A stretch of DNA of 64,000 nucleotides from Planctomycetota bacterium (lineage in GTDB: Bacteria; Planctomycetota; UBA8742; UBA2392). The DNA is taken from the NCBI GenBank assembly GCA_015075515.1, contig JABTUE010000002.1:661478-725477 (forward strand), written 5' to 3'. The notes under the pieces are model-generated. The model was not told where the DNA came from, did no database searches, and saw nothing but the letters and a program-made list of their open reading frames with translations. Shown piece by piece: positions 5,544-49,810 of this stretch; within the stretch, counting starts at the first letter, position 1, and every line of letters begins with the position of its first letter. The translations under genes were made by a program, and so were the position numbers.

Positions 5544-8500
5544 TCAGGCCGTGGCGGGTTCGACGGCGTTGAGTTTTTCCTCGGCCAGTTTCCTGACGCC
5601 GCGCAGGTCAATCTTGCCCGTGCCCAGAACCGGCAGCGCCGGCACTTCGACAAAATCGTTGGGCCTGGGGATGAACAGGTTGGGCAGGCCCTGCTTCTGA
5701 AGGCCTTCCAGCAGGATTTCGATGCTGACTTCGCACTTGCAGTGCACCACGGCGATGCGTTCGCCCTTGCGTTCGTCGCGCACGGCGGTCACGGCAAACA
5801 CCTGCTGGGTGGCGGTGACGCAGGCGTGCAGGGCTTCTTCGATTTTGATGTGCGGTACCATTTCGCCGCCGATCTTGGAAAAGCGCGACAGCCGGTCGGT
5901 GATCGCGATATAGCCGTCCTCGTCCACTTTGGCGATGTCGCCGGTGACGTACCACCCGTCGCGCAGCACCTTGGCGTCAAGGTCCGGCCGGTCGAGGTAC
6001 CCCTTCATCACGTTGGGGCCCTTGACCAGCAGCATGCCCGGCGTGCCGACAGGCAGGGGCTCAAACGTGTCCGGATCCACCACACGCACGCTCACGCCCG
6101 GCAGGGGCTGGCCCACGGTGCCCACGCGGTTGCCCTTCTGGTAGAAGCCGCGGGCGCGGAAATCCAGGCTGTTGACGGCAATCACCGGCGCGCATTCCGT
6201 GCAGCCGTAGCCCTCCAGAATCTCGACACCGAAGTGTTCCTTGAACGCGGCGGCGAACTTGGGCGAAAGTTTTTCCGCCCCGGCCACGACCAGCCGCATG
6301 CTGCCGAACTGGCCGGGCTGGATGCGCTTCATGTACATCTGCAGAAACGTGGGCGTGGCGCAGATCGCCGTGCCGCCGTAGCCCTCGCACAGGTGCCCGA
6401 TCGTCTCGGCATCCAGGGGGTTGGGCGCCAGCACCAGCGCCGGCCCCACGTGCACACCCACCCACAACAGCAGGTTGCCGAAGCTGTGAAACAGCGGCAG
6501 CAGATGCACCAGCCGGTCTCGGGCGTCAAAGTGCAGCGTCTGGGCCGCGGCCTCCACGTTGCTCAGAATATTGAAGTGCGTCAGTTGCACGCCCTTGGGC
6601 TCGCCGGTGCTGCCGCTTGAGAAAATGATCGTGGCCACGTCGTCCATTTCGGGGCGCTTGCGCGCGTGCACCAGCCGTTCAATCGCGAAATACGGCATCA
6701 CTGCCGCGAAAAGCATGGCCTTGAGCCTTTCGCGCGTGCCGATGGTCGGGGCGATGTCTTCCAGCAGCACGACCTGCACGTTGCCCGGCGGTTCCAGTTT
6801 TGCCTTTTCCAGAAACGCGCGGCTGGTGACCACGGTTTTCAGCCCGGCCTGGGCGCAGGCGGCCTCCATGCCGGCTTTGCCCGTGGTGTAGTTCAGGTTG
6901 ACAAAACAGCGCGCTGAAATCGCGGCGGCCATGTTCACCAACGCGCCGCCGACACTGGGCGGCAGCAGAATGCCCACCCGCGCCTGGTCGGCCCACACCT
7001 TGCGCAACGCGCGCGCCAGCGCGATCGCGCCGGTCACGGCCTTGAGCCGGATCAGCGCCCCGCGCACCGGGTCAGCCAGCCCCAGCGTGAACGGGTGGCG
7101 GCGGGCGCTGCGCACCACGCTGTAGCCCAGCGGCAGCATGCCGCGCTTGCGCAGCATCCAGCCCTGCTGGCTCAAATCGTGAACCGCGCGGCGCACCTCG
7201 GTCAGCGGCGTGGACGACGGCATGGGCGCGCCGAACAGCACGTTGATCGGCCGCGGGAAACGGCGCGGCAGCTTGGTCACCATGCGGCCGCCGGCGGGGC
7301 TGAAGACACTGCCCCACACGTTGTCCAGTTGCATCGGGATGATCGGAACGTTGCGGCCCTTGACGATAATTTCGGCGCCGCGCCGGAACGGCAGCAGCAT
7401 GCCGATGCGGCTGATTTCACCCTCGGCAAAAATGCACACCAGCTCGCCCTGGTCCAGATAGCGCCCGGCGTCCTTCAGCGCGCGCATCACCACCTTGGGC
7501 CCGCCGGTGCTGGAAACCGGAATCGCGCCCAGCGCCTTCATGAACGGCTTGAGCAGCGGGTGGTAAAAGTAATGCTCGTCCACAATGAAGCGCACCGGCC
7601 GGTCAATCGAGGCCAGCACGAACAGCCCGTCGGCCAGCGACAGGTGGTTGGCCACCAGCAGCGCCCCGCCCGTGCGCGGCACGTGGTGACGCCCGGAAAC
7701 GTGAATGCGGTAGGCCGTGCCGGCCAGAATCACGGCCACCAGCCGCACCAGCGCGTCAGGCAGAAGTTTGATCGCCCAGGCCGTTCCGGCCAGGGTAATG
7801 CCCGCCGCGCCCAGAAAGATGCCCACCGGCGACAGCCGGGCAAAGAACGCCAGGCCGGTGCCCAAAAGCGAACCCGCCAGCACGCCCGTGAACACAAAGA
7901 TGTTGGCCAGCGCGATCACACTGCCGCGCAGGTGCGCCCGCGGACGGCTTTGCAGCACCGCCTGCAGCGGAACGACGATCAGGCCGCTGGAGATGCCCAT
8001 CAGTGTCATCAGCACGCACACGCCGGTCATGCCCGGCGCGCCGGCGCCCAGCGCCAGTGTCAGCACGCCCAGCCCGATACTGCCCAGCGGAATCAGGCCG
8101 TATTCGACCTTGCCGCCGGACAACCGCCCGGCCAGCACGCTGCCGGCACCCACGCCCAGGCCGAACAGCGCCAGCGGCAGACCGGCCAGGTCGTCGCCGG
8201 CGCGCACCACGGCCTTCATGTACACGACCAGGTTCTGGCCCAGCAGGCTGGCCACGCCCCAGAACAGCGTGGCGCCCAGCACCGTCAGCCACAGCACGCG
8301 GTCGGCGCGCACTTCGCGCCAGGCCGCGCGCATGCCGCCTTCCTGGCCCGGCGCGCGCGCGGGGCTCACGCGCGGCACGGCCAGCGACGCCGCCAGCCCG
8401 ATCGCGGCAAAGGCCAGCAGCGGCAGAATCGCCCAGTGCGGCGCGGCACCGGCCCGGGCCAGCATCACACCGCCCAGCGCCGTGCCGCCGATGATGGCCA

Positions 8501-8999
8501 GAAACGTCCACAGTTCGAGCAGCCCGTTGCCGCGCGAAAGTTTTTCATGGGGCAGAATCTCGGGCAGAATGCCGTACTTGGCCGGGCTGAAGAACGCGCT
8601 CTGGATGCCCATCGCCGCCAGCACCGCCAGCAGCGGCCAGAACGCGCCCTCGGGCGCCAGCCACAGCACCGCAAACGCCCCGGCCACCAGCAGCAGCTCA
8701 AGACCCTTGAGCGCCACGATCAGCCTGTGCTTGCTGACCCGGTCAGCCAGCACGCCGGCCGGAATCGAACACAGCGCCAGCGGAATCGTCAGCGCCGCCA
8801 TCACACCCGCTGTCACCAGTTGCGCCGCCCGCGCCGCCGATTCGCCGGAATCCCCGCGCGTGAACGCAGCAATGCCCAGCAGCGTCAGAATCATCTTCAG
8901 CGCGTTGTCGTTGAACGCGCCGAAGAACTGCGCCACCAGCAGCCCCGGCATCGGGCGCCGGCGTGACGCCGGCGCCGAAGTTGTCGCGCTTTCGTTCAT
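5544..8999 (-). CDS. aas: Triple-fusion protein: MFS lysophospholipid transporter (LplT-like), PlsC-type acyltransferase (HX4D), and AMP-dependent acyl-ACP synthetase (Aas-like).
   Basis: 1151 aa. N-terminal ~400 aa has 12 predicted TM segments of MFS type. The middle region carries the acyltransferase motif VANHLSLADG with FAEGEISR. The C-terminal region has the AMP-binding motif IIFSSGSTGEPKGV and ligase motifs. A coherent single ORF with high GC3. Confidence 0.85.
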   Translation of the reverse strand: MNESATTSAPASRRRPMPGLLVAQFFGAFNDNALKMILTLLGIAAFTRGDSGESAARAAQLVTAGVMAALTIPLALCSIPAGVLADRVSKHRLIVALKGLELLLVAGAFAVLWLAPEGAFWPLLAVLAAMGIQSAFFSPAKYGILPEILPHEKLSRGNGLLELWTFLAIIGGTALGGVMLARAGAAPHWAILPLLAFAAIGLAASLAVPRVSPARAPGQEGGMRAAWREVRADRVLWLTVLGATLFWGVASLLGQNLVVYMKAVVRAGDDLAGLPLALFGLGVGAGSVLAGRLSGGKVEYGLIPLGSIGLGVLTLALGAGAPGMTGVCVLMTLMGISSGLIVVPLQAVLQSRPRAHLRGSVIALANIFVFTGVLAGSLLGTGLAFFARLSPVGIFLGAAGITLAGTAWAIKLLPDALVRLVAVILAGTAYRIHVSGRHHVPRTGGALLVANHLSLADGLFVLASIDRPVRFIVDEHYFYHPLLKPFMKALGAIPVSSTGGPKVVMRALKDAGRYLDQGELVCIFAEGEISRIGMLLPFRRGAEIIVKGRNVPIIPMQLDNVWGSVFSPAGGRMVTKLPRRFPRPINVLFGAPMPSSTPLTEVRRAVHDLSQQGWMLRKRGMLPLGYSVVRSARRHPFTLGLADPVRGALIRLKAVTGAIALARALRKVWADQARVGILLPPSVGGALVNMAAAISARCFVNLNYTTGKAGMEAACAQAGLKTVVTSRAFLEKAKLEPPGNVQVVLLEDIAPTIGTRERLKAMLFAAVMPYFAIERLVHARKRPEMDDVATIIFSSGSTGEPKGVQLTHFNILSNVEAAAQTLHFDARDRLVHLLPLFHSFGNLLLWVGVHVGPALVLAPNPLDAETIGHLCEGYGGTAICATPTFLQMYMKRIQPGQFGSMRLVVAGAEKLSPKFAAAFKEHFGVEILEGYGCTECAPVIAVNSLDFRARGFYQKGNRVGTVGQPLPGVSVRVVDPDTFEPLPVGTPGMLLVKGPNVMKGYLDRPDLDAKVLRDGWYVTGDIAKVDEDGYIAITDRLSRFSKIGGEMVPHIKIEEALHACVTATQQVFAVTAVRDERKGERIAVVHCKCEVSIEILLEGLQKQGLPNLFIPRPNDFVEVPALPVLGTGKIDLRGVRKLAEEKLNAVEPATA

Positions 9000-10333: not shown

Positions 10334-11761
10334 TTACCCGGTGTCGCCGGGTTTGCGCGGCGTGGGCAGGCGCACGCTTTTCTGGCCGGGGTTGGTCGGG
10401 GGCGCGCCGGGCAGGCGCACGCTGGTGCCCGCGTTGGGCAGGCGCACGCTGGTGCCGGGCTTGATCGGCGGCTTGCGGATCGAGCTGGTGTTGCTGCCGG
10501 CCCCGGTCACCGGCGGCTTGCGCACACTGCCCGCGGGGCCGCCCACCGGCGCCATGCGTGTGGAACTGTTGCGCACCGGCGCGAACTTGCCCGTGCTGTG
10601 GCCCGCCAGGCGCTGGGTGGAACTGGGATTGCCCAGCATGAACGGGCTGGTCGGGTCGTTTTCGGGGTTGTACTGAAGGTCCGCCGCGCCCTGCAGCACC
10701 TCGGTCACGTCGTCCACCACCTCGCGCGCTGTCTGGTACCGGAAGTCGCGTTCCTTGCTCATCATCTTTTCGATGAAGTAGTGCATGTGCACGCTGATCT
10801 TGCCGCCCTTGAGCGTGTGCTGGTTCAAACCTTCCATCACCTGCTTGGCCATGACCTCCATGCTGTCCTTGCCGGTGAACGGCAGTTCGCCGATCACCAT
10901 GTGGTACAGCGTGGCGCCCAGACTGTAGATGTCGGCGCGGATGTCCAGGTCGGCCATGCCGCGGGCCTGTTCGGGGCTGATGTACTGCACAGTGCCGCAG
11001 GTTTCGTCTTCGTACTGGCCGGCCAGGTCCTTGCGGATTGGCGTGGCAAAACCCAGATCCACCAGCATCACGCGCCCGTCGCCGGCCCACATGATGTTGT
11101 CGGGCTTGACGTCGCGGTGCACCACGCCGCGTTCCTGCATGTAGGCCAGGGCGCGCGCGGCCTCCAGAATCACGTACACCGACTTCTGTTCGTCAAACGG
11201 CCCGTCGCGGTCCAGCAGGTCCTGGATGCTGGGGCCGTCAATGTATTCCATGCTCATGAAGTACAGCGGGCTGCCGGAATCCTTGCCCACCACGCCGTAG
11301 TCGTAGCCCTTGGCGATGTTTTCGCACTCAAACTCTTTCAGCAGCCGGCCTTCGCGGATGAAGCGCTCGACGAACTTCTTGTTGCTGACGTGTTTGGGGT
11401 ACAGAACTTTCAGCGCGCACCTGGCGCCGGTCTGCTTGTTGCGCGCCAGAAACACCTGGGCCATGCCGCCGGCGCCGATCTCGCGCTCGACCTCGAAAAT
11501 CGGAATCCGCCGCGCCTCTTCCAGCGACACGCTGTCGCCAACGCCCGGAATGTCCACCGGCCCGCCGCCGCCGCTGAGATTGGCCGCCTGTTCGGGCGTC
11601 AGGTACTTCTTCTTCAGCGCGATCTGCACCAGCGGAATGTCAACGCCCTTGGCCTCCTTGACCGCGGCCTGCAGGTCCATGCATTCCTGCACCCGCTCCT
11701 TGGTCAGCAGGCCCTGCTTGACGGCCAGCGCCATCAGCATCATTTCCTGGTTGGCGGCCAT
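10334..11761 (-). CDS. Serine/threonine protein kinase (Hanks-type) with an N-terminal ~60-aa extension and a Pro-rich C-terminal tail containing SVRLP repeats.
   Basis: Gly-loop and VAIK-like region (ARCALKVL). HRDVKPDNIM catalytic loop. DLGFA (DFG variant). SPE (YISPEQ) activation segment. C-terminal GTSVRLPNAGTSVRLPGAPPTNPGQKSVRLP. Confidence 0.9.
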   Translation of the reverse strand: MAANQEMMLMALAVKQGLLTKERVQECMDLQAAVKEAKGVDIPLVQIALKKKYLTPEQAANLSGGGGPVDIPGVGDSVSLEEARRIPIFEVEREIGAGGMAQVFLARNKQTGARCALKVLYPKHVSNKKFVERFIREGRLLKEFECENIAKGYDYGVVGKDSGSPLYFMSMEYIDGPSIQDLLDRDGPFDEQKSVYVILEAARALAYMQERGVVHRDVKPDNIMWAGDGRVMLVDLGFATPIRKDLAGQYEDETCGTVQYISPEQARGMADLDIRADIYSLGATLYHMVIGELPFTGKDSMEVMAKQVMEGLNQHTLKGGKISVHMHYFIEKMMSKERDFRYQTAREVVDDVTEVLQGAADLQYNPENDPTSPFMLGNPSSTQRLAGHSTGKFAPVRNSSTRMAPVGGPAGSVRKPPVTGAGSNTSSIRKPPIKPGTSVRLPNAGTSVRLPGAPPTNPGQKSVRLPTPRKPGDTG

Positions 11762-12054
11762 CAGGAATCACCGCCTTCGTCGGGGTCGTCAATCAGGATT
11801 TCGTCGCACATCTTGTGCACGCCGTTGATCACCAGCACCGTGATCAGCTCGCGTTCCTCGGCCGGAAAATCGTCCAGCGCGTCCTTGATCGCCATCAGGC
11901 AGTCGCGGATGCGCAGTTCCTGCGCGTCCACGCGGCGCGACAGCTCGGGGTGCTTCAGCTTGATCGTGCGCACGCGATCGAAGATGCGGGTGACCATGCC
12001 CGGCGTGAAATCGCCCGCGTCTTTGGGTTCCGCCTTTGCCGCTTTGGGGGCCAT
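11761..12054 (-). CDS. Small hypothetical acidic protein (97 aa) translationally coupled to the downstream Ser/Thr kinase by an ATGA overlap.
   Basis: Its TGA stop (11761-11763, complement) overlaps the kinase ATG (11759-11761, complement). High GC3. Sensible composition (MAPKAAKAEPKDAGDF...DDPDEGGDS). Confidence 0.6.
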   Translation of the reverse strand: MAPKAAKAEPKDAGDFTPGMVTRIFDRVRTIKLKHPELSRRVDAQELRIRDCLMAIKDALDDFPAEERELITVLVINGVHKMCDEILIDDPDEGGDS

Positions 12055-12177
12055 GAATGCTCCGCCTACAGTGTATGTCCTAACGCACAGGCCGCGCGAG
12101 AGATTTCACGCTACCTGACGCAGCATTACCCGTTATCATGCCTTGGGGACCAAAAGCTTACCAATCCGGGGGTTGCA

Positions 12178-12699
12178 ATGCATTACCGTGCTGTCGCCGC
12201 CGTCTGTCTGGCCCTGTCTCTGGGTCTGGGCGTTGTGTCAACCGTCATGGGCCAGGCCAAGGCCAAGGAAGAGCCCAAGGTCGAGCCCAAGAAAGAAGAA
12301 CCCAAAAAGGAAGACCCGAAGAAAGAAGAACCCAAGGAAGCCCCCAAGCCCCTGACCAGCGACGAATACGACGCCCTGATGAAGAAGATCAAGACCGCGC
12401 AGGGCAAGCTGCGCGCCAACCTGCGCAACAAAAAGGGCGCCGAGGCCGCCGAAGCCGGCGAAGAACTGGCCAAGCTGGCCGCCGAGATTCTGCGCTATGA
12501 CGGCGACGTCAAGGAAGGCGACAACAAGGGCCAGAAAGTCCGCGACCAGAAAGACTTCAAGCAGTGGGCGGAAGACCTGAAAAAGGCCGGTGAAACCGTA
12601 GCCAAACACGCCAAGGCCGGCAAGTGGGACGACGCCGACAAGGAAAAGGACAACATCGGCCGCACCTGCAGCAACTGCCACGACGTGTACGACAAGTAG
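12178..12699 (+). CDS. Class II c-type cytochrome (cytochrome c'-like four-helix-bundle family). It has a signal peptide, a Lys/Glu/Pro-rich linker and a C-terminal CXXCH.
   Basis: Signal peptide MHYRAVAAVCLALSLGLGVVSTVMG. Low-complexity KAKEEPKVEPKKEEPKKEDPKKEEPKEAPK linker. The single heme-binding motif CSNCH lies 5 residues from the C-terminus (…RTCSNCHDVYDK), the arrangement characteristic of cytochrome c' and c556. GGGGG Shine-Dalgarno 6 nt upstream of the ATG. Confidence 0.7.
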   Translation: MHYRAVAAVCLALSLGLGVVSTVMGQAKAKEEPKVEPKKEEPKKEDPKKEEPKEAPKPLTSDEYDALMKKIKTAQGKLRANLRNKKGAEAAEAGEELAKLAAEILRYDGDVKEGDNKGQKVRDQKDFKQWAEDLKKAGETVAKHAKAGKWDDADKEKDNIGRTCSNCHDVYDK

Positions 12700-12784: not shown

Positions 12785-12812
12785 GAAGGGGCGACTCGGG
12801 AGTGTCGCCCCT
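12785..12812. terminator. Stem-loop between convergent genes (cytochrome c-like, plus strand, and FHA-CAP gene, minus strand). Likely a bidirectional terminator.
   Basis: Perfect 10-bp stem aaggggcgac / gtcgcccctt with 8-nt loop tcgggagt. No strong U-tract, so possibly a factor-dependent or weak intrinsic terminator. Confidence 0.45.
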
Positions 12813-12867
12813 TCGAGCCAGGCCGCGCTGGGCATCGTGGCCTGACAGTCAACTGTCTGCGGGCGGG

Positions 12868-15663
12868 TTACTGGCCGCCGCGGCTTTCGGTGTTGCCGGT
12901 ACCTTCGTCCTTGCCGCCGAAGTTCTGGGTCCAGATGTTGCCGAACTTGCCGCTGCCCAGCACGCGCCAGGCCGGGTGCAGGATGTTGCGGTGGTGGCCG
13001 CTGCTGTTGCACCAGGCGTCGTGGCTGCTCTGGGCCGTGGGGCCGCGCCCGTTCATGTGGATGTTTTCGCCGCCGGGGCCGTTGTAGCCCTCATAGCGCA
13101 TGCGTTCGGCGGGGTTGTTGCCGCGCGGTCCGCCGGGCGAATCGTGGGCGATCTGGCCGCCGTTCTGCTCCACGCACCACTTGCTGTGGTGCCACGCGGC
13201 CCAGAACAGCTTGTCGTTGATCTTCAGCGCCACGCGCCCGAACATGATGCGGTACTCGTTGGTGATGCGTACCTGTTCGCGGCCGTCGCCGTCGGTGTGG
13301 CCCTGGCCGGTCGGGAACTTTTCGTTGTATTCCATGATCTCGCGGTTGAGGCTGATCAGGGCCTTGCGCTGCTTGTCTTCGGCCGGGGCGTAGTTGCGGA
13401 TGCTCAGGGCCTTGTTGGCGATGGTTTCCACGTACTTGATGTCTTCTTCGGGTGTGCCGGTGTAGAACTTCTGTTCGGGGTCAAGCTGCGCCATCCGTTC
13501 GCAGATCGCGCGCACGCGGGCCAGAATCGCCTCGTATTCGGGGTTGGTCTGGCCGGTGAACTTGGTGGGATCGTTCCAGATCTCGCGCACCGCCGCCACG
13601 CGCTGGTTGACTTCGGCCTGGACCTCGGCCTGGTTGGGGCCGTAGGGGTACGGGTAGCGCACGGTGTCCATGATCAGTTCCAGCGCGTGCGCCCGGCGCT
13701 TGTCCAGTTCGGTCAGCAGCGCGCGCATCTTGGTGTCGTCGCTGGCCAGCAGTCCCGTAGCGGCCTCGGCCCGGGCGATTTCGGCCTGGCGCAGCTTGTC
13801 CAGAATCGCCACGGCGGGGCCCACGGCGCGCTCGCCCATGGACTGGATTTCGGCAAAGGCCTTTTCCGCTTCCTCGGCCTTCTTCCTGTCCTTGCTGCCG
13901 GCGTTTTTCTCAAACCGCGTCAGCACCGCGCGCAGCCGCCGGTCGAACTCGATGTTTTCGCGCTCGGCGGGCGCGATCAGCGCGCCCTCGAACTCGATGT
14001 AGCCGCCCTCGGGAATCGCCATGCGGCGTTTGGTGGCAATCAGGATGTCAATGCCTTCCTTCCAGCCGTTTTCTTTCTTGTACAGAGCGCAGGCGCGCTT
14101 GCTGGCCTCGTCCACCAGACCGGCGTTGAAGGCAAAGATCACCGCCGCCAGCAGGTCTTCGCTGGTCAGCCCGGGCACCCGGTCGTAAAGCTGCAGCATG
14201 TCCTCGGGCGCGATCTCGGACCACTTGACGCGGGTGCGGAACGGGATTTCCTCGCCGGTCTTCTTGTCCGTGCTTGAGGCGTCAATCGTGATCTTGTCGT
14301 CGCTGGCGTCCTTGATCTGCGCGGGCTTGCCGCGGTAGGTAAAGCGCCGGTCGGTCAGCTTCTGGCCTTGCGCCGCGGCCACCAGCTTCTTGTGCAGGGC
14401 CGCCAGCAGCTTTTCCTCGCTGCGCGCGCCGTCGGCCAGCAGCGGGTTTTTACCCGGCAGGTTTTCTTTGGTTTCCTTGACGCGATCCAGCACCGAAGGC
14501 TTGCGCGGCGTGTCCACCACCGGCGTTTCTTCGGGGGCGCTGGTGGCCTTGAGTTCGTACAGCTTGGCCTGTTCGGCGCGGTACAGTGATTCTTCTTCGG
14601 CGCTCAGCCAGGCGCGGTCCAGCACCATGGCCAGAATCGCCAGCGCGTCGTCGTAACGCTTAAGATCGCGCAGGTCCGTAACCTGGGCAAAGGCGCCGCC
14701 GACCCAGCGTTCGTTGGCTTTGACCGCGTCGGTGCGGAACTTTTCGATGCGCGAACGGTAGTTGTTGCCCGTGGCGCGCAGGTATTCGTTGCTGTTCAGC
14801 CACGCGGCCAGCGTGGCCGCGCGCGAAATACCGCGACGGAACTCGCCGTCTTCCAGATCGGCCGAAGCCGCCGCCAGGTCGCCCTCAACGCGGGTCTTGA
14901 CCTCGGTGTCCAGTTCGCGCAGCACCGCCGCGCGCAGGTCCGAAATGCGTCCGGCCGCCACGCTGCCGTGCTTGCCCTTCAGCGGTTCGGCCAGCTTGTC
15001 CAGCGCGTTCAGGCGTTCCAGCGCCGGGGCCGACGAACCGGCCTTTTCTTCGGCCAGGGCAATCGCGGCCTTTTCGTCTTCGGAAAGTTCGGCCTGGCGC
15101 GGGATCACCGGGCCGGTGCGGGCCACTTCGGGCTGCTGGCCGCCGCCGCCCAGGTTGCTGAACAGCAGGTACGAACCAACGCCCAGCACAACCACCGCCG
15201 CGGCCGCCGCCGCCAGCGCGAACACCGGCGGCTTCTTGGACGGCATGGCGTGCACCGGCGCTTCGCCTTCGGGACGGTCCGCGCGCGGCGCCTTGGGTGC
15301 AGCCCGCCGTGCGGGCCGGGCTGCCACCGGCGCCCCCCCGGGAGCGGGTGAGGCCTGGGCCACATCGGCCGGCAGCAATCCGGTCACCTGGATGCGCGTC
15401 TTGCCGATGATGATGACGTCGTTTTCCTTAAGGTAGGCGAAGTTCACCTTTTCGTCGTTGACCACCGTGCCGTTGGATGACATCTGGTCTACCAGCTTCC
15501 AGCCGTCCACCGTGCGTTCCAGCGTCAGATGTTCGCGCGAGGCCGCCTTTTCGTCGGGAATGGCCAGGTCATTGGAGGGCGCGCGGCCGACCTTGATGAT
15601 GCCCAGGTCAGGGTTGGGGTTGAACTCGCGCACCACACCGTTTTCGGATACCAGAAGTTTCAT
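12868..15663 (-). CDS. FHA-domain membrane protein with a long coiled-coil-rich extracytoplasmic region and a C-terminal CAP (SCP/PR-1-like) domain.
   Basis: N-terminus MKLLVSENGVVREFNPNPDLGIIKVGRAPSNDLAIPDEKAASREHLTLERTVDGWKLVDQMSSNGTVVND (FHA: GR...N.....SR.H..L......D..S.NGT.VN). Single TM segment (VFALAAAAAAVVVLGVGSYLLF). C-terminal block with ...GHHRNILHPAWRVLGSG... and ...HDSPGG...GENI..., resembling CAP-domain motifs. 931 aa. Confidence 0.8.
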   Translation of the reverse strand: MKLLVSENGVVREFNPNPDLGIIKVGRAPSNDLAIPDEKAASREHLTLERTVDGWKLVDQMSSNGTVVNDEKVNFAYLKENDVIIIGKTRIQVTGLLPADVAQASPAPGGAPVAARPARRAAPKAPRADRPEGEAPVHAMPSKKPPVFALAAAAAAVVVLGVGSYLLFSNLGGGGQQPEVARTGPVIPRQAELSEDEKAAIALAEEKAGSSAPALERLNALDKLAEPLKGKHGSVAAGRISDLRAAVLRELDTEVKTRVEGDLAAASADLEDGEFRRGISRAATLAAWLNSNEYLRATGNNYRSRIEKFRTDAVKANERWVGGAFAQVTDLRDLKRYDDALAILAMVLDRAWLSAEEESLYRAEQAKLYELKATSAPEETPVVDTPRKPSVLDRVKETKENLPGKNPLLADGARSEEKLLAALHKKLVAAAQGQKLTDRRFTYRGKPAQIKDASDDKITIDASSTDKKTGEEIPFRTRVKWSEIAPEDMLQLYDRVPGLTSEDLLAAVIFAFNAGLVDEASKRACALYKKENGWKEGIDILIATKRRMAIPEGGYIEFEGALIAPAERENIEFDRRLRAVLTRFEKNAGSKDRKKAEEAEKAFAEIQSMGERAVGPAVAILDKLRQAEIARAEAATGLLASDDTKMRALLTELDKRRAHALELIMDTVRYPYPYGPNQAEVQAEVNQRVAAVREIWNDPTKFTGQTNPEYEAILARVRAICERMAQLDPEQKFYTGTPEEDIKYVETIANKALSIRNYAPAEDKQRKALISLNREIMEYNEKFPTGQGHTDGDGREQVRITNEYRIMFGRVALKINDKLFWAAWHHSKWCVEQNGGQIAHDSPGGPRGNNPAERMRYEGYNGPGGENIHMNGRGPTAQSSHDAWCNSSGHHRNILHPAWRVLGSGKFGNIWTQNFGGKDEGTGNTESRGGQ

Positions 15664-16044
15664 GGGGCTCTCCGCACAATCGTCAACCTGGTTACCAGCA
15701 CGGGCAGGTTCGCCTAAATCGGCCCGGCCGGAAGGGTTCCAACGACGCTATAGCGCATAGCCCGTGCCAATCCGGTTTTGGGGTGTGAGCAACGGCCCAA
15801 AGCCGGTGACGGGGCGACGCGAAAAGAGCGTGGCACGACGGGTGTGTAACTTACACACAAATCGGAAGGTTTGGATGCAGTTGGGCACTGTTTCCGAGGT
15901 GTCCAAATTTCTGGAAACCTTGATTTCAATAGGGTTACCAGTTAGTAGCCGGAAAATGGTCCTGTGTAGAAAGGACACAGTGACTGGAGAAGGTTGGATG
16001 GGCAGAGTCTGCGCCCAGGCCCGTGGCCCCTGACCTTAAACCCA
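15664..16044. promoter_or_regulatory. Low-GC intergenic region upstream of the FHA-CAP gene containing several palindromes. It is a putative promoter and operator region.
   Basis: GTGTGTAAcTTACACAC is a perfect 7+7 palindrome at 15843-15862. CTGTGT-N7-ACACAG lies near 15958-15980. GTTTCC/GGAAAC and TTTGGA/TCCAAA inverted repeats lie at ~15869-15925. Local GC is markedly below the window average. Confidence 0.4.
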
Positions 16045-16070
16045 GCGGCCCCGGCGCGAACCGGGGCCGC
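16045..16070 (-). terminator. Hairpin 18 bp downstream of the stop of the 1029-aa gene. Putative intrinsic terminator.
   Basis: 10-bp perfect stem gcggccccgg / ccggggccgc with loop cgcgaa. On the minus strand it is followed by GGGTTTAAGG (short T-run). Confidence 0.45.
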
Positions 16071-16087: not shown

Positions 16088-19000
16088 TCAGTTGCCAGTC
16101 TTGATTTCCGTGTCTGATTCGCGGTACCAGAAGGCCCGCTGGCGGCGGATCAGATCGCGGAAGTTTTCAAACTCGTCGCCCAGCCGTTCAAACCGCACGC
16201 GGTAGACCCATTCTTCCGACGCATAGCGCGGGTTGAAGTAGGTCTTCTTGACCGGCGTCTTGCCCAGGTCGGCCGGGTTGGGCACTTCCTTGACCGATTC
16301 GTCCACAGACAGGCCGGCCTTGGCCACCTGGCCGCGCAGCCCGCGCACGATCACGTTGGCCCAGTCCCAGTCGCGGCTGACGTTGCGGAAGATGGCCACG
16401 CCCCACATTTCGCTGACGTAACGGGTAATGAAGCGCGGGGCGTCGGCGCCGTCCCAGCGGTTGGCGGGGCCGATCTTGTCGGCCAGGCGCGTGATCACCT
16501 GCCACTCGCCGCTGTCGGGATCCTGGTAGACCATCGGGGGCGGCACGGTCCAGCGCCGCCAGGTCTGCATGTTTTCTTCCAGGGCGTTGTCCTTGACCTC
16601 GGTTTCTTCAAAATCGCCGCTGTCCACGGCCTTGCCGCGGCGCACGTCGCCGCCCTGGCTGACAAAGCGGTCGCGGAAGCGGTTGACATAGCGGATCACG
16701 GTGCGCGAGCGCACCTCAAAGCCGTCGGCCTTGGCGCGGGCTTCGGCGTCCTGCCAGCTTTCGACGCGGGCGCCGGCGGGCACGCGCACGCCGTCGGCGA
16801 ACACGCCGACCACAACCGGCTCGGTGGTCTTGCGGGCGCGCACGATCTTGACCTTGACGACCTCGCGGCCGGGTTCCTTGCCGTTGGCCTGGGCGTATTC
16901 TTCTCTGGTCAGGTACGAAACCTTGCCCTCGGCGTCGCGGGATTCATAGCCGTCCAGCACTTCGGGCTCGGTGATTTCGCGGTTTTCATAGATCAGGCGC
17001 GACAGCGGCGCGACGTCAACCTCGCCGGCGGGGCCGCGCTTGACCATCATGCGGATTTCTTCCTGCACCAGCTTCCAGCGGTCGCCGCCGTACTGGCCCT
17101 TGAAGCCTTCGTCTTCCTGGGCCTCGGACGCGTAGTGGTACAGGTACACGTATTCGTATTCGTATTCCTTCAGGTACAGCAACTGGTCGAACTCGTCGCG
17201 CACCAGATCGCCCTTTTCGTCGCTCATGGGCACGCGCACGCCGCTGAACTCGTCGTGCCAGTCGGCCCAGGCGCCGTGCTGGTCAAACCGGGGCACCGGC
17301 ACCGCGTTTTCGCCGGGGCCGCCCAGCGGCGCGTACACGTATTCTTCGCCGGGGCGCAGGCTGGCGCCTTCGGGGATCGGGGCCACGCGATTGGTCGTGT
17401 ATTCACCGTCGGGGTCACGCATGAAGTCGTCGGCCTGGATCGTGCGCGGGTCGTAAGGCCGGCCGGTCTTGTAATCCACGGTGGTCAGGATGATTTCGCC
17501 CTTGGGCCCCTTGCGGCCGGTGTTGACGCCGCGCTTGATGGTTTCGGGCTGGTTGCGGTCGGCGGGCCCGACGAAGTAGCCCAGCTTGATCTTGGGCAGA
17601 CCCACCAGCGGGTCGTCGGCGGTCAGGGGCCGGCCGACAATGTTGTTCAGGTTGGTGTAGCGTGCCAGCACGCCGGGCCCGATGCGCGCGCGCCAGATAT
17701 CCCATTCGGCCTGGGTGATCACGTCGCCGGCCTGGTAGGTGACCAGATACTTGCGCAGGGCGCGCCCGCGCGAGTCCACCATCTTGACCGGCTTGCCCAC
17801 AACATTGGCGCCGAACTTTTCGGTGCCGGCGTCAATCGCCTCGGCCTCGGCATAGCGCGGGTCGGCGGCGTTGATGATCACGCCATTGATCTTGAACGTG
17901 TCGTTGCGCCGGCCGGGGATGGTGATGCCGGTGTCGTGGTTGAACAGCACTTTGTCGCCGTCCTTGTACTGCAGGAAGTGCGGCATGGTCACGCCCTGGC
18001 CCACGGCCGGGTGGTTGGGGCCGATCAGGCCGTAGCTGTTTTCGCCCTCGCCGTTGCCGCCGGCGATGCGCGCGTTCAGATAGCCCGGGTCGTTGGCGCG
18101 CAGCACGCGGCCGTAGCGGTCAATGCAGTCGCCGGGTTCATAGCGGCGCTGGGTCAGCTTGCCCCACATGCGGTCGTCGGTGCTGGTCACCAGACGCGCG
18201 CCGTCGGGCAGGCGGTCGCCGGTGCCAAAGATGCCGGCATAGGTGTTGTCGGCAAACACGGCCACATAGCGCGTGGTTTCGACGCGCTCGTTGCCCTGCA
18301 GCACCACGGCGCGGTACGGCAGACAGCGCGGGCCGGACAGGTCGGGCGCGCTGCGGTCAAAGCCGCGGCCCATCTGGCGCTGGAAGTCCGACAGCGGGTG
18401 CAGCAGCGTCACCGGCTCGGGCGTGCCGGCAAAGTTGCCGTTCCATTCCCACATCTCTTCCTTTTCCGCAATGCGCTGCAGCACGAACGGATCCGACACC
18501 GCGCGGTAGGTGCGCTTGATGTTGGCCCGGCGTTCGGCCTCGGCCTGTTCCGATGCCGGAAGCTGGCTGGGCCGTTCGATTTCTTCGGGGTCGCGCGGCC
18601 ATTCGGTATCCCAGGGGTCGCGCTCGACGTTGCGCGTGAACACCTGAAGCTCGAAATCAATGTGGCAGTTGACCGGCACGCCCTCGAAGTTCGGGGTGTT
18701 GCCGCCGCGGATTTCCAGCGGCTCGGGCGGGCGGCCCAGGTCCACTTCTTCGGGGTTGGGCTCGGGCAGGGTCGTGGACTTGACCTGGCGCACGTTGTTG
18801 TTGATCACCCGGAACAGCACGTACCAGTATTCGCGGCTGGTGCCATCGGGGTAGTTCACCACGATGCTCTTGGGGTCGTACAGGTCAATCTTGAGCTGCC
18901 ACTGCGGGTCGTTCAGGTGCCGTTCGTTCTTTTCGCCGAACTGTTTGAAGTTTTCCGGCCCGTAGGGGTCGGGGCCGCCAAACCGCCCCGCCTGGTCGCT

Positions 19001-19174
19001 GGTGTTGCCCTGCATCGGGTGGTCAGGCCCCTGGTGGCTTTCGCGCGTGCCCTCTTTGCGCAGCTTTTCATGCTCGCTTTCAGGGATTTCCTTGAGCGAC
19101 TTCTGGGCCAGCGACAGGTTGAGCACCAGCCCCGCCAGGGCCAGCGCCGCCAGAGCGCGAAACACAATCCGCAT
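16088..19174 (-). CDS. Large secreted hypothetical protein (1029 aa) with no recognisable domains.
   Basis: Start at ATG 19174 (MRIVFRALAALALAGLVLNLSLAQ, a signal peptide) with GGAG 7 nt upstream. D/E/K/Y/W-rich balanced composition. Contains the unusual YEYEYVYLYHY stretch. The upstream in-frame extension to 19471 lacks coding character. Plus-strand ORF 17135..19180 is an H/V/G-rich antisense shadow. Confidence 0.75.
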   Translation of the reverse strand: MRIVFRALAALALAGLVLNLSLAQKSLKEIPESEHEKLRKEGTRESHQGPDHPMQGNTSDQAGRFGGPDPYGPENFKQFGEKNERHLNDPQWQLKIDLYDPKSIVVNYPDGTSREYWYVLFRVINNNVRQVKSTTLPEPNPEEVDLGRPPEPLEIRGGNTPNFEGVPVNCHIDFELQVFTRNVERDPWDTEWPRDPEEIERPSQLPASEQAEAERRANIKRTYRAVSDPFVLQRIAEKEEMWEWNGNFAGTPEPVTLLHPLSDFQRQMGRGFDRSAPDLSGPRCLPYRAVVLQGNERVETTRYVAVFADNTYAGIFGTGDRLPDGARLVTSTDDRMWGKLTQRRYEPGDCIDRYGRVLRANDPGYLNARIAGGNGEGENSYGLIGPNHPAVGQGVTMPHFLQYKDGDKVLFNHDTGITIPGRRNDTFKINGVIINAADPRYAEAEAIDAGTEKFGANVVGKPVKMVDSRGRALRKYLVTYQAGDVITQAEWDIWRARIGPGVLARYTNLNNIVGRPLTADDPLVGLPKIKLGYFVGPADRNQPETIKRGVNTGRKGPKGEIILTTVDYKTGRPYDPRTIQADDFMRDPDGEYTTNRVAPIPEGASLRPGEEYVYAPLGGPGENAVPVPRFDQHGAWADWHDEFSGVRVPMSDEKGDLVRDEFDQLLYLKEYEYEYVYLYHYASEAQEDEGFKGQYGGDRWKLVQEEIRMMVKRGPAGEVDVAPLSRLIYENREITEPEVLDGYESRDAEGKVSYLTREEYAQANGKEPGREVVKVKIVRARKTTEPVVVGVFADGVRVPAGARVESWQDAEARAKADGFEVRSRTVIRYVNRFRDRFVSQGGDVRRGKAVDSGDFEETEVKDNALEENMQTWRRWTVPPPMVYQDPDSGEWQVITRLADKIGPANRWDGADAPRFITRYVSEMWGVAIFRNVSRDWDWANVIVRGLRGQVAKAGLSVDESVKEVPNPADLGKTPVKKTYFNPRYASEEWVYRVRFERLGDEFENFRDLIRRQRAFWYRESDTEIKTGN

Positions 19175-19461
19175 GGGTAGCTCCACGGCCGAACCAATAC
19201 ACGCCAGATACCACACACCGGTCACGGCCAAACACCGGCCGTACCGGGGCGAACGCAATCCTGCGGGGGGTCGGCGCAGTCTACCCCACCCCCTTACCCC
19301 GTCAAGGCTTGCAACGTCATGGCTGTGTCGCGGGAAGGCGGGGGTTGGGGGTTGGTACCAATCCAAAACCCCGGCCCCCGGCCCCCGGCCTCCATCTTCC
19401 GGCCTTCCAAAGTTTGTCGCATGGCCCCGTATACTTCCCTGCAACACATACGGAGACCACC

Positions 19462-22560: not shown

Positions 22561-22676
22561 GCAGATCCATACGGTCCGTGGGGCCGCGCGGGCCCCCCAC
22601 ACAATGCCTCGGTCACATGCTCAGCCGCGAGAAACACGCGGGGGAACGATTGTAGGCCGCGCGCGCTTTGGCGCAA

Positions 22677-26154: not shown

Positions 26155-26166
26155 GAAGGGGCGGCA

Positions 26167-28805: not shown

Positions 28806-28889
28806 GCCGCCCTTGAGTGTAAGGCAATTTGTGCCGATAATAAAAGGTAAGCTCACCCGGCCGCCGCTTCCTCGACGGCAGGAGACATT

Positions 28890-37149: not shown

Positions 37150-37155
37150 TCCGGC

Positions 37156-49547: not shown

Positions 49548-49609
49548 ACCGGCCCGTCCCAGCATTATTGGCGTCGCAGGATGCCCGAACACGAAAATGC
49601 AGCAGGCCA

Positions 49610-49700: not shown

Positions 49701-49810
49701 ATACGCACGATGCTGGGGTCCGATAATCCCAAACAACGCCTTCGCCTGCGCGAGGATAGGCCAACCAGGCCAGCGATATGTCGTTTTGACTAGTTTCGGA
49801 TCGCCTGCGC

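What the first reader, a model, noticed from the sequence alone, without database searches (positions are those of the whole stretch)
12868..15663. FHA domain fused through a single TM helix to a ~600-aa coiled-coil region and a C-terminal CAP (PR-1/SCP) domain
FHA, a phospho-Thr reader, is cytoplasmic. CAP domains are extracytoplasmic and normally occur in secreted proteins. Combining them in one 931-aa bitopic protein suggests a transmembrane link between Ser/Thr-kinase signalling and an extracellular CAP function. The link could run inside-out or outside-in. I am not aware of a characterised FHA-CAP protein. A Hanks kinase gene lies 1.1 kb away.
Basis: partly seen in the sequence, partly recalled or inferred. 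Interest (0 to 1): 0.6.

Follow-up and report, generated by a model that had tools for sequence, protein, structure and literature searches.

The report
Membrane FHA–CAP envelope protein, sigma-54 driven
This is a real, conserved inner-membrane protein of uncultured Planctomycetota with a phosphothreonine-reader domain inside the cell and a CAP/YkwD domain in the periplasm; it belongs to a large uncharacterised family, has its own conserved sigma-54 promoter, and has no conserved link to the nearby kinase.

Summary
The 931-aa ORF (12868..15663, minus strand) is real. It has an FHA domain (Pfam E 8e-13), one TM helix (residues 146-168, N-in by charge bias) and a C-terminal YkwD-type CAP domain (Pfam E 1.5e-7; family profile vs PDB 4ifa E 1e-22).

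The "~600-aa coiled coil" is not supported. The periplasmic part is a TPR-like helical region followed by a family-specific alpha/beta region ("X") that is always fused to CAP.

The architecture is not unique. About 31 full-length orthologues exist in Planctomycetota MAGs, and at least 285 clusters (50% identity) share the X region. In a sample of 51 full-length members, 51 have CAP and 36 have FHA. FHA-less members start with a signal or lipoprotein-like peptide.

The Hanks kinase is not a conserved neighbour (2/21 and 6/80 loci). A ~1030-aa secreted protein with no known domain is (17/21), but it has its own sigma-70-like promoter and terminator.

New finding: all 23 orthologous upstream regions examined carry a sigma-54 -24/-12 element about 100 nt before the ATG. 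An alignment of 20 of them also shows two conserved palindromes further upstream.

Best reading: an inducible bitopic adaptor that tethers a periplasmic CAP module to a phosphothreonine partner. No experimental characterisation was found.

The parts
12868..15663 (-). FHA-TM-X-CAP gene, 931 aa (stop codon included)
   Evidence: ORF list and translation. 31 full-length orthologues at 47-81% identity.
15379..15663 (-). Cytoplasmic FHA domain (residues 1-95) with the phosphothreonine-contact residues G26, R27, S42, H45, N64
   Evidence: Pfam E 8.4e-13. Foldseek to GarA/OdhI/FhaA. Residues invariant or nearly invariant. Mean identity 0.72 across orthologues.
15229..15378 (-). Disordered Pro/Ala/Arg-rich cytoplasmic linker (residues 96-145)
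   Evidence: pLDDT 30-43. Lowest conservation of any region, 0.38. K/R-rich.
15160..15228 (-). Single transmembrane helix (residues 146-168)
   Evidence: The only Kyte-Doolittle window above 1.6. AF2 helix 148-169. A TM segment at residue 100-230 in most superfamily members.
14542..15081 (-). Membrane-proximal periplasmic helical region (residues 195-374), TPR-like
   Evidence: AF2 helices, pLDDT about 90. Superfamily profile gives weak hits to PPR, DnaJC3-TPR and BamD. TPR_21/YfiO Pfam hits in a few relatives.
13294..14430 (-). Family-specific 'X' region (residues 412-790): helix, 4-strand beta unit and a helical domain with the motif RRxxALxLIxDxxxYPYPYxPNxxEVQxEVxxRVAAVRExW
   Evidence: AF2. 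phmmer finds 285 clusters. Contiguous 533-bit match for residues 412-928. No Pfam or PDB match.
12871..13293 (-). Periplasmic YkwD-type CAP domain (residues 791-931), with invariant H826, E866, H890, H891 and conserved C830/C885
   Evidence: Pfam CAP. NCBIfam YkwD E 1.4e-9. 4ifa by sequence and by fold. Mean identity 0.76.
15755..15769 (-). Sigma-54-type -24/-12 element TGGCACGGGCTATGC, 106 nt upstream of the ATG
   Evidence: Read directly. The same TGGCAC-N5-nYGC element lies 96-158 nt upstream in 23/23 orthologous upstream regions and in 5 more narrow-family metagenome loci.
15843..15859 (-). Proximal palindrome TGTGTGTAAGTTACACA (family consensus YGTRTA-N5-TACACR), candidate activator site
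   Evidence: Conserved in the alignment of 20 upstream regions. In the 64-kb window the pattern occurs only here and at the distal site; 0.45 matches expected by chance.
15912..15940 (-). Strongly conserved block TGGTAACC-N4-TTGAAATCAAGGTTTCCA between the two palindromes; function unknown
   Evidence: Unique in the window, 0.02 matches expected.
15962..15980 (-). Distal palindrome CTGTGTCCTTTCTACACAG, second candidate activator site, about 120 bp from the first
12785..12814 (-). GC-rich hairpin GAAGGGGCGAC...GTCGCCCCTTC about 55 nt after the stop codon, between convergent genes. Candidate terminator. Coordinates approximate.
   Evidence: Read from the sequence. Not tested further.
16088..19174 (-). 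Conserved upstream neighbour: secreted ~1028-aa beta-rich protein with no known domain. It is a separate transcription unit, so a functional link is possible but unproven.
   Evidence: 56% identical to the neighbour in L001. Within 10 kb in 17/21 genomes. No Pfam, NCBIfam or PADLOC hit. No PDB fold match. Own sigma-70-like promoter at 19278..19306 and hairpin at 16045..16070.

Best explanation
The gene encodes a bitopic inner-membrane protein, N-terminus in and C-terminus out.

Inside the cell is an FHA domain with an intact phosphothreonine pocket on a flexible, basic linker. Outside are about 760 residues: TPR-like helical repeats, then a family-specific region ('X') that is always fused to a YkwD-type CAP domain.

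The periplasmic X-CAP module is the conserved core of the family, since it also occurs as a signal-peptide or lipoprotein form without FHA. It most likely binds a cell-envelope component. Peptidoglycan is the leading candidate, by analogy with DalA, the only functionally studied bacterial CAP protein that the literature searches turned up.

In this clade the FHA domain docks onto a phosphothreonine on a membrane or cytoplasmic partner (a Ser/Thr kinase or one of its substrates). Phosphorylation would then decide where or when the periplasmic module acts (inside-out).

The gene is monocistronic. It is expressed from a dedicated sigma-54 promoter with two upstream palindromes, so it would be made only when an unidentified enhancer-binding activator fires.

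Shown: domain content, conservation, promoter and palindrome conservation, and lack of a conserved kinase neighbour. Predicted: topology and fold. Inferred: phosphothreonine binding, the envelope ligand, and the direction of signalling.
For: - Domains and fold.
- Topology: one TM segment and K/R 8 vs 3. FHA-less relatives start with signal or lipobox-like peptides, e.g. ...LALNSCGG...LLAAACGGS...LVLAACSGG.
- X-CAP as the core module: 51/51 sampled relatives have CAP and 36/51 have FHA. Residues 412-928 match as one block at 533 bits. FHA and CAP are the most conserved regions, at 0.72 and 0.76 identity.
- Phosphothreonine-contact residues are invariant in the 31 orthologues. This differs from the phospho-independent FHA folds of T3SS SctD proteins (own knowledge).
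- CAP and the envelope: RSP1200/DalA is a YkwD/CAP-domain protein (PMC5442454). It is an outer-membrane lipoprotein that binds peptidoglycan non-covalently and associates with the divisome (PMC10470522).
- One deep branch of the superfamily lies next to LpxL-like, WaaP-like and LptF/LptG genes (16 loci).
- Sigma-54 element in 23/23 orthologous upstream regions, with palindromes unique in the window.
- Sigma-54 regulons are enriched for functions of the cell exterior (PMC3162934).
- A terminator-like hairpin follows the upstream gene and another follows this gene.
Against: - No ligand, partner or phenotype is known for any family member.
- Peptidoglycan binding rests on analogy to one distant CAP protein. 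The DalA model scores only 14 bits here.
- About half of the FHA-bearing relatives have lost at least one phosphothreonine-contact residue. Phospho-reading is therefore not essential to the family.
- The LPS-gene neighbourhood travels with UvrD, and another branch with MeaB, so it may be inherited gene order only. It is absent from the window's own clade (0/21).
- No enhancer-binding protein gene (GAFTGA motif) lies in the window or in any orthologous locus.
- Topology and fold are predictions. Whole-chain pTM is 0.41.
Confidence: 0.4

Rival explanations
1. Outside-in sensor. The periplasmic CAP domain, with its conserved His/Glu cluster, binds a periplasmic ligand such as a metal, a lipid or a muropeptide. 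Ligand binding changes the oligomeric state, and the FHA domain then recruits or releases phosphoproteins in the cytoplasm.
For: - Invariant H826, H840, E866, H890 and H891 in the CAP domain, also invariant across the superfamily.
- Actinobacterial proteins that fuse a sigma-70/anti-sigma-like region through a TM helix to a CAP domain (P0239, P0244) show CAP in the usual position of an extracytoplasmic sensor.
- TPR-like and YfgM-like juxtamembrane region.
Against: - An FHA domain has no enzymatic output.
- There is no obvious way to transmit a signal through a single TM helix followed by a 50-residue disordered linker.
- FHA-less lipoprotein forms cannot signal inward, yet they keep X-CAP intact.
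Confidence: 0.2
2. Structural subunit of a trans-envelope assembly, built together with the co-located ~1030-aa secreted protein. The FHA domain would act as a cytoplasmic docking platform, as in SctD/YscD of type III secretion or GltG of the gliding machinery.
For: - Pfam Yop-YscD_cpl 42.8 bits, and the N-terminus of NCBIfam GltG matches.
- The secreted neighbour is adjacent in most genomes (17/21 within 10 kb) and is confined to the same clade.
- In relatives the neighbour sits next to a 2100-aa alpha-2-macroglobulin, a periplasmic protein.
Against: - The two genes have different conserved promoters (sigma-70-like vs sigma-54) and a terminator between them.
- The neighbour is not within 10 kb in 4 of the 21 genome loci, and in L019 it stays beside the macroglobulin gene, about 4 kb downstream on the opposite strand.
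- The neighbour is absent next to distant family members.
- No secretion, pilus or motility genes were found nearby.
- GltG scores 47 bits against a cut-off of 650.
Confidence: 0.15
3. The FHA domain reads a phosphothreonine made by, or located on, the neighbouring Hanks kinase (10334..11761), forming a local kinase-adaptor pair.
For: - The kinase is real, on the same strand and 1.1 kb away.
- It is soluble and has a Ser/Thr/Pro-rich tail with TSVRLP repeats that could be phosphorylated.
- The FHA pocket is intact.
Against: - An opposite-strand gene separates them.
- The FHA-CAP gene has its own promoter and a hairpin after its stop codon.
- There is no orthologous kinase next to the gene in 21 genomes; two loci have unrelated ~30%-identical kinases. 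Only 6/80 superfamily loci have any Hanks kinase.
- Many Planctomycetota clades carry large kinase families (PMC11032199), so proximity by chance is expected.
Confidence: 0.08
4. The periplasmic X-CAP module is an enzyme, for example a metal-dependent hydrolase acting on the wall or on proteins. The FHA-TM part is only a membrane anchor.
For: - Very high conservation of a His/Glu/Asn/Arg cluster in the CAP domain.
- FHA is dispensable in many relatives.
Against: - No catalytic activity has been established for bacterial YkwD-type CAP domains (own knowledge; nothing found).
- There is no similarity to any hydrolase family.
Confidence: 0.1

Closest known systems
DalA (RSP_1200) of Rhodobacter (Cereibacter) sphaeroides, a divisome-associated CAP/YkwD lipoprotein
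   Same: Periplasm-facing YkwD-type CAP domain in a diderm bacterium, membrane-tethered. DalA binds peptidoglycan non-covalently (PMC5442454, PMC10470522). FHA-less relatives of the window protein start with a signal or lipoprotein-like peptide.
   Different: DalA is small (its NCBIfam model is 169 positions), sits in the outer membrane, and has no FHA, TM, TPR-like or X region. Its NCBIfam model scores 14 bits here against a cut-off of 200. Binding of the wall by the window protein is untested.
Mycobacterial FHA adaptors FhaA (Rv0020c) and FipA/FhaB (Rv0019c), and the FHA-bearing ABC transporter Rv1747
   Same: These FHA domains are among the closest by sequence and fold. They read phosphothreonines made by PknB-type kinases and couple them to wall synthesis, division or export (own knowledge; PDB 3oun is FhaA bound to the MviN intracellular domain).
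   Different: None has a periplasmic CAP domain. FhaA is cytoplasmic. NCBIfam FhaB scores 35 bits against a cut-off of 125. Those genes lie in a conserved kinase/phosphatase operon (own knowledge); this one does not.
FHA-TM-periplasmic scaffolds of envelope machines: SctD/YscD/PrgH (type III secretion) and GltG (Myxococcus gliding)
   Same: The same overall layout: N-terminal cytoplasmic FHA fold, one TM helix and a large periplasmic part. Pfam Yop-YscD_cpl and the GltG N-terminus match.
   Different: The periplasmic parts are unrelated. No machine genes lie nearby. GltG scores 47 of the 650 bits required. SctD FHA folds lack the phosphothreonine residues (own knowledge), whereas this clade keeps them.
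Secreted bacterial SCP/YkwD proteins (B. anthracis 4ifa, B. subtilis YkwD, Borrelia BB0689)
   Same: The same CAP subfamily signature: TNxYR, GHS, FxH, GENI, SxGHxxNIL.
   Different: Those proteins are small and secreted or lipid-anchored, with unknown molecular function. Here the domain ends a 931-aa transmembrane protein and is welded to the X region.
Actinobacterial sigma-70/anti-sigma-like - TM - CAP fusions (P0239 from Saccharothrix, P0244 from Streptomyces; database entries only)
   Same: A cytoplasmic regulatory domain joined through one TM helix to an extracytoplasmic YkwD-type CAP domain.
   Different: A different cytoplasmic domain, no X region, a different phylum, and also uncharacterised.

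Membership tests
FHA domain (Pfam PF00498) | Profile score above the curated cut-off | tested here: met
   49 bits against 20.7, E 8.4e-13, residues 23-87.
FHA domain (Pfam PF00498) | Beta-sandwich FHA fold | tested here: met
   AF2 pLDDT 77-91 over residues 1-95. Foldseek to GarA, OdhI, FhaA and Ki67, with TM-score normalised to target 0.7-0.88.
FHA domain (Pfam PF00498) | Conserved phosphothreonine-contact residues (Gly-Arg, Ser-x-x-His, Asn) | tested here: met
   G26, R27, S42 and N64 are invariant and H45 is in at least 90% of 31 orthologues. Only 41 of 91 FHA-bearing superfamily representatives keep all of them.
FHA domain (Pfam PF00498) | Actual binding of a phosphothreonine peptide | not testable with these tools
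   Needs biochemistry.
CAP / SCP / PR-1 superfamily (Pfam PF00188) | Profile score above the curated cut-off | tested here: met
   32.7 bits against 21.1, E 1.5e-7. 51/51 sampled relatives also hit CAP, best E 4.9e-18.
CAP / SCP / PR-1 superfamily (Pfam PF00188) | Alpha-beta-alpha sandwich fold similar to a solved CAP structure | tested here: met
   Foldseek to 4ifa E 8.3e-4, 131 aligned columns, rmsd 2.9. Sequence profile to 4ifa E 1.2e-22.
CAP / SCP / PR-1 superfamily (Pfam PF00188) | Extracytoplasmic location | tested here: inconclusive
   Predicted only. Single TM with positive-inside bias, a conserved Cys pair C830/C885, and signal or lipoprotein-like forms of relatives.
Spore-associated YkwD family (NCBIfam TIGR02909) | Score above the curated cut-off | tested here: not met
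   38 bits against 171. Same domain type, but not this subfamily.
DalA divisome-associated lipoprotein (NCBIfam NF052539) | Score above the cut-off and a lipoprotein signal peptide | tested here: not met
   14.4 bits against 200. The window protein has an internal TM helix and no lipobox.
DalA divisome-associated lipoprotein (NCBIfam NF052539) | Non-covalent peptidoglycan binding and septal localisation | not testable with these tools
   Known for DalA from PMC10470522 only.
GltG gliding-motility protein (NCBIfam NF033760) | Full-length match above the cut-off | tested here: not met
   47.5 bits against 650. Only residues 21-155 (FHA plus linker) match.
T3SS SctD/YscD | Periplasmic ring-building domain and T3SS gene neighbourhood | tested here: not met
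   Only the cytoplasmic FHA-like Pfam model matches. No T3SS genes in the window or in related loci.
T6SS TagH/Fha (NCBIfam TIGR03354) | Score above the cut-off and T6SS neighbourhood | tested here: not met
   34.5 bits against 120.25. No T6SS genes nearby.
Sigma-54-dependent promoter | -24 GG and -12 GC with exact spacing (TGGCAC-N5-TTGC-like), conserved in position | tested here: met
   TGGCACGGGCTATGC at -106. Present in 23/23 orthologous upstream regions at -96 to -158. Background is about 0.01 per 600 nt.
Sigma-54-dependent promoter | Upstream activator sites and a cognate enhancer-binding protein | tested here: inconclusive
   Two conserved palindromes, roughly 75-90 nt and 195-210 nt upstream of the -24 element. 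No GAFTGA-motif gene in the window or in 30 related loci.
Sigma-54-dependent promoter | RpoN-dependent transcription | not testable with these tools
   Needs an rpoN mutant or in vitro transcription. The presence of rpoN in this genome could not be checked.
Anti-phage defence systems (PADLOC) | Any model hit | tested here: not met
   No hit for the FHA-CAP protein or its conserved neighbour.

The most novel reading that the evidence does not exclude
The FHA-X-CAP proteins are a widespread, so far unstudied envelope system, seen so far only in Planctomycetota where an organism is named. A bacterial CAP domain would be the periplasmic working end of a device gated from inside the cell by Ser/Thr phosphorylation and switched on transcriptionally by sigma-54. 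This would give bacterial CAP/YkwD domains a defined signalling context. The X region would be a new domain that partners CAP.
Probability: 0.25. Interest if true: 0.6.

Novelty: new variant of a known kind. Interest (0 to 1): 0.45.

Why it matters
Bacterial CAP/YkwD domains are common, but DalA was the only functionally studied example found. Bitopic FHA proteins are known to link Ser/Thr kinases to wall synthesis, division, secretion and motility. This family joins the two.

Comparative data now give testable handles:
- a periplasmic X-CAP core that also exists as a signal-peptide or lipoprotein form;
- an FHA domain that is intact in some lineages and degenerate in others, which is a natural experiment on phospho-dependence;
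- in this clade, a dedicated sigma-54 promoter with defined candidate activator sites.

If the module binds the wall or the outer-membrane biogenesis machinery, it would bear on envelope biology in Planctomycetota. The finding is moderately interesting rather than surprising. The architecture is already abundant in databases, and the proposed kinase link does not hold up.

Tried and rejected
- **Kinase as conserved partner: rejected.** Found in 2/21 and 6/80 loci only.
- **Long coiled coil: rejected** on the AF2 secondary structure and the TPR-like profile hits.
- **Operon with the ~1030-aa upstream gene: rejected.** The two genes have different conserved promoters and a hairpin or terminator between them. 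A functional link is still possible.
- **Profile search of the 5.8-billion-protein set with distant members:** the word filter recovered only three full-length relatives, so it gave little taxonomy. The cluster look-up named only one more Planctomycetota member.
- **LPS-gene neighbourhood (LpxL-like, WaaP-like, LptF/G) in one deep branch: kept only as a weak lead.** UvrD and MeaB are conserved neighbours to a similar degree, and the window's clade lacks the block.
- **Defence-system membership: rejected**.
- **Nearby enhancer-binding protein gene: none found**.
- **Sigma-54 element in the wider superfamily: absent.** Only 5 of 46 loci have it, and all five are narrow-family members. It is a trait of this clade.
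- **Literature searches for a characterised FHA-CAP protein: none found**.


Full report
**1. The observation**

The window has an ATG-started ORF of 931 codons at exactly 12868..15663 on the minus strand.
- Pfam finds FHA at residues 23-87 (E 8.4e-13, 49 bits, cut-off 20.7). It also finds the related T3SS YscD cytoplasmic model on the same stretch.
- Pfam finds CAP at residues 799-903 (E 1.5e-7, 32.7 bits, cut-off 21.1).
- NCBIfam adds a YkwD-type match at residues 795-915 (E 1.4e-9). All named equivalogs (GltG, OdhI, FhaB, TagH, DalA) score far below their cut-offs.
- A hydropathy scan gives a single hydrophobic segment, residues 146-168. There are 8 Lys/Arg in the 30 residues before it and 3 in the 30 after it, and there is no N-terminal signal peptide. 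The predicted topology is therefore FHA inside and C-terminus outside.
- A Hanks kinase (Pkinase E 5.6e-45) lies at 10334..11761 on the same strand. A cytochrome c'-like ORF on the other strand (11815..12699) sits between it and the gene.

So the FHA, the single TM helix, the CAP domain and the nearby kinase are all confirmed.

**2. The middle is not a coiled coil**

An AlphaFold2 model built on 31 orthologues has mean pLDDT 79. It shows:
- FHA at residues 1-95;
- a disordered linker containing the TM helix (148-169);
- a helical region at 195-374;
- a disordered linker at 377-400;
- a helix plus a four-strand beta unit at 413-480;
- a helical domain at 486-781 with a small hairpin at 556-563;
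- the CAP domain at 792-925.

The longest helix is about 41 residues. A profile of distant relatives gives weak TPR/PPR/BamD-like matches for the membrane-proximal helices (E 5e-7 to 4e-4). A few relatives hit TPR_21 or YfiO. Foldseek against PDB returns only FHA structures (GarA, OdhI, FhaA; E from 1.7e-5) and the B. anthracis SCP-domain protein 4ifa (E 8.3e-4). The region between residues 412 and 790 has no match in Pfam or PDB.

**3. How common the architecture is**

A search of 5.8 billion proteins found 33 relatives at E below 1e-120. Of these, 31 are full length at 47-81% identity, plus an identical partial NCBI entry. Every named one is from a 'Planctomycetes bacterium' MAG, and nearly all are pre-annotated FHA plus CAP. 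One genome per species gave 21 full-length loci, again all uncultured Planctomycetota.

In the alignment, FHA (0.72 mean identity) and CAP (0.76) are the most conserved parts, and the cytoplasmic linker (0.38) the least.

Searching only the middle (residues 190-790) against 1.84 billion cluster representatives gave 285 clusters at E up to 1e-3 and 117 at E up to 1e-10. Most are 850-1050 aa. Of 51 full-length distant representatives (about 20% mean column identity), all 51 have a CAP domain and 36 have FHA.

A profile built from those 51 matches the window protein as one uninterrupted block from residue 412 to 928 (533 bits). The family-specific region, here called X, and CAP therefore form one module. 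X carries the motif RRxxALxLIxDxxxYPYPYxPNxxEVQxEVxxRVAAVRExW.

Members without FHA begin with a signal peptide or a lipobox-like sequence, for example LALNSC, LLAAAC, LVLAAC. This independently places X-CAP outside the cytoplasm.

The architecture is thus real, old and abundant, though no paper describing it was found.

**4. Is the FHA domain a phosphothreonine reader?**

In the 31 orthologues the canonical contact residues are kept: G26, R27, S42, R43, N64, G65, T66 and N69 are invariant, and H45 is in at least 90%.

Across the superfamily the picture is mixed. Of 150 representatives, 91 have a detectable FHA, and only 41 of those keep Arg, Ser/Thr, His and Asn together. Some are clearly degenerate, such as P0099.

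Phospho-reading is therefore likely in this clade, but it is not the invariant core of the family.

**5. Genomic context**

The kinase is not a conserved neighbour.
- Only 2 of 21 orthologous loci have any Hanks kinase within 10 kb. Both are about 30% identical, so they are paralogues.
- Only 6 of 80 superfamily loci from metagenomes have one, in 866 kb of sequence.
- Two distant members examined individually have none.
- Many Planctomycetota clades carry many such kinases (PMC11032199), so a chance neighbour is unsurprising.
- The window's kinase is soluble, with a Ser/Thr/Pro-rich tail carrying TSVRLP repeats.

The conserved neighbour is instead the upstream gene at 16088..19174. Its true start is Met100 of the long ORF, giving a signal peptide MRIVFRALAALALAGLVLNLSLAQ.
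- It is a ~1030-aa beta-rich protein with no Pfam, NCBIfam or PADLOC match.
- It has no PDB fold match (model pLDDT 67.5; best E 0.49).
- It is 56% identical to its counterpart in L001 and lies within 10 kb in 17 of 21 genomes.
- It is confined to the same clade.
- In relatives it is flanked divergently by a 2100-aa alpha-2-macroglobulin gene, which the window lacks. In L019 it stays with that gene rather than with FHA-CAP.

In one deep branch of the superfamily (members 30-45% identical to each other) the gene sits in a block: UvrD / FHA-X-CAP / LpxL-like acyltransferase / WaaP-like kinase / LptF / LptG. At least one LPS gene is present in 16 loci. This hints at the envelope. However, UvrD and, in another branch, MeaB are conserved neighbours to a similar degree, so I give this little weight.

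**6.

The 424-bp spacer upstream of the gene contains TGGCACGGGCTATGC at 15769..15755, which is 106 nt before the ATG. It has the exact GG-N10-GC geometry of a sigma-54 promoter.
- The same element, TGGCAC-N5-nYGC, lies 96-158 nt upstream of the ATG in all 23 orthologous upstream regions examined. These include loci that lack the upstream neighbour. It also occurs in five more narrow-family loci from metagenomes.
- A single occurrence is not significant in a 64-kb window (3 found, 5 expected). Strict positional conservation in otherwise diverged spacers (59% column identity) is significant.
- The wider superfamily lacks the element.

An alignment of 20 upstream regions shows further conserved features:
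- two copies of a 17-bp palindrome, YGTRTA-N5-TACACR (window 15843..15859 and 15962..15980), about 120 bp apart;
- a very conserved block, TGGTAACC-N4-TTGAAATCAAGGTTTMCA, between them (15912..15940);
- a GGAG ribosome-binding site.

In the window the palindrome pattern and the block occur nowhere else.

The upstream neighbour has a different conserved promoter, CTTGAC-N17-TAGACT (19278..19306). It is followed by a perfect GC hairpin (16045..16070). In other loci that hairpin carries a T-run, which makes it an intrinsic terminator. A second strong hairpin lies about 55 nt after the FHA-CAP stop codon.

The gene is therefore most likely monocistronic and dependent on sigma-54 plus an activator. 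No GAFTGA-motif activator gene lies in the window or in 30 related loci. Sigma-54 regulons are known to centre on the cell exterior (PMC3162934), which fits an envelope role.

**7. Most likely mechanism**

My best reading is a bitopic adaptor, with confidence about 0.4.
- The periplasmic X-CAP module engages an envelope component.
- Peptidoglycan is the leading candidate. DalA (RSP1200), the functionally studied bacterial CAP protein found in the searches, is a YkwD/CAP lipoprotein that binds peptidoglycan non-covalently and associates with the divisome (PMC5442454, PMC10470522).
- The FHA domain ties this module to a phosphothreonine-bearing partner, so that kinase activity positions or gates it.
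- This would resemble how mycobacterial FhaA and FipA connect PknB signalling to wall synthesis and division (own knowledge; PDB 3oun appears among the closest FHA structures).
- The whole device would be made only on a sigma-54 signal.

Rival readings are:
- an outside-in sensor, supported by the invariant His/Glu cluster and by actinobacterial sigma-factor-TM-CAP fusions;
- a trans-envelope assembly with the secreted neighbour;
- the local kinase-pair idea;
- an enzymatic CAP module.

Only domain content, conservation, context and promoter motifs are shown. Topology and fold are predicted. Ligand, partner and direction of signalling are inferred.

**8. Comparison with known families, and novelty**

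The protein is a bona fide FHA-domain and CAP-domain protein; both pass the curated cut-offs and match by fold. It is not a member of GltG, SctD, TagH, FhaB, spore YkwD or DalA, since each was tested and failed its cut-off or context requirement.

It resembles the known class of bitopic FHA scaffolds, with an unprecedented characterised output, and adds a new X domain. I rate it a new variant of a known kind, with interest about 0.45. The family is worth a bench study. It is already abundant in databases, and the eye-catching kinase link does not survive comparison.

Noticed in passing
window 15755..15980 (minus strand): A conserved sigma-54 -24/-12 element, two 17-bp palindromes (YGTRTA-N5-TACACR) and a conserved block TGGTAACC-N4-TTGAAATCAAGGTTTCCA lie upstream of the FHA-CAP gene. 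The sigma-54 element is present in all 23 orthologous upstream regions examined. The role of the block is unexplained: it is not a clean IHF site, and it looks like a degenerate second -24/-12 element with GA in place of GC.
   Followed up: yes
window 16088..19174 (minus strand); promoter 19278..19306; hairpin 16045..16070: A clade-restricted ~1030-aa secreted beta-rich protein with no Pfam, NCBIfam, PADLOC or PDB-fold match. About 44 relatives were found; every one that carries a source name is from a Planctomycetota MAG. It has its own conserved sigma-70-like promoter (CTTGAC-N17-TAGACT) and a terminator-like hairpin. The annotated long ORF (to 19471) overextends the start by 99 codons.
   Followed up: partly
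L001-L004 and 12 of the 21 genome loci L005-L025, upstream of the ~1030-aa gene: In relatives a ~2100-aa alpha-2-macroglobulin gene (MG2/A2M/bMG10) lies divergently next to the ~1030-aa gene. In L019 that pair stays together about 4 kb downstream of FHA-CAP, on the opposite strand. The window has no such gene.
   Followed up: partly
L088, L102, L103, L108, L137, L147, L151, L154 and others (metagenome loci): In one deep branch of the superfamily the gene sits in a conserved block with UvrD, an LpxL-like lipid A acyltransferase, a WaaP/Kdo-kinase-like gene and LptF/LptG. In another branch MeaB is the conserved downstream gene.
   Followed up: partly
P0170, L088, L102, L155, L157 (N-termini); P0099: Some family members replace FHA-TM with a signal or lipobox-like peptide. 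About half of the FHA-bearing members have lost at least one phosphothreonine-contact residue.
   Followed up: partly
P0239 (Saccharothrix), P0244 (Streptomyces): Actinobacterial proteins annotated as sigma-70 family factors carry Sigma70_r2 and CAP Pfam domains. In P0239, whose sequence was read, a Cys-rich anti-sigma-like stretch, one TM helix and a Ser/Pro linker precede the C-terminal YkwD-type CAP domain. This is another case of CAP as the outer end of a transmembrane regulator.
   Followed up: no
window 10334..11761 (minus strand): The Hanks kinase has no TM segment. It has a low-complexity Ser/Thr/Pro tail with three S(V/I)R(L/K)P-type repeats (GTSVRLP, GTSVRLP, KSVRLP). Its best PADLOC and NCBIfam hits are generic kinase models below their cut-offs.
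   Followed up: no
window 51677..57045 (minus strand): A complete rRNA operon (16S 55519..57045, two tRNAs at 55150..55331, 23S 51925..54884, 5S 51677..51782). It explains the low-GC stretch. The 16S gene could classify the organism, but no suitable database was available.
   Followed up: no
window 41217..49736 (minus strand): A giant 2839-aa protein with Laminin_G_3, HYDIN/ASH Ig-like, DUF1573 and CARDB domains and several Kelch beta-propellers. Probably a surface protein.
   Followed up: no
window about 23685..41114 (minus strand): A run of polysaccharide-biosynthesis genes: MBOAT acyltransferase, five GT4/GT2 glycosyltransferases (one a GT4-GT2 fusion of 655 aa, one a double GT4 of 718 aa) and an ABC ATPase protein. 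Several ORFs with no Pfam match are interspersed, including a 1064-aa ORF at 27258..30452.
   Followed up: no
window 5544..8999 (minus strand): An 1151-aa fusion of an MFS transporter, an acyltransferase and an AMP-binding enzyme. This is the layout of lysophospholipid transporter / acyl-ACP synthetase (Aas-like) systems.
   Followed up: no
window 20440..22602 (minus strand): A 720-aa TPR-rich protein with an internal Peptidase_C39_2 (PA2778-like cysteine peptidase) domain, two genes upstream of the FHA-CAP gene. It is not conserved next to the orthologues.
   Followed up: no
window 58459..60561 (plus strand): A 700-aa fusion of a class II aldolase/adducin domain with a short-chain dehydrogenase.
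   Followed up: no
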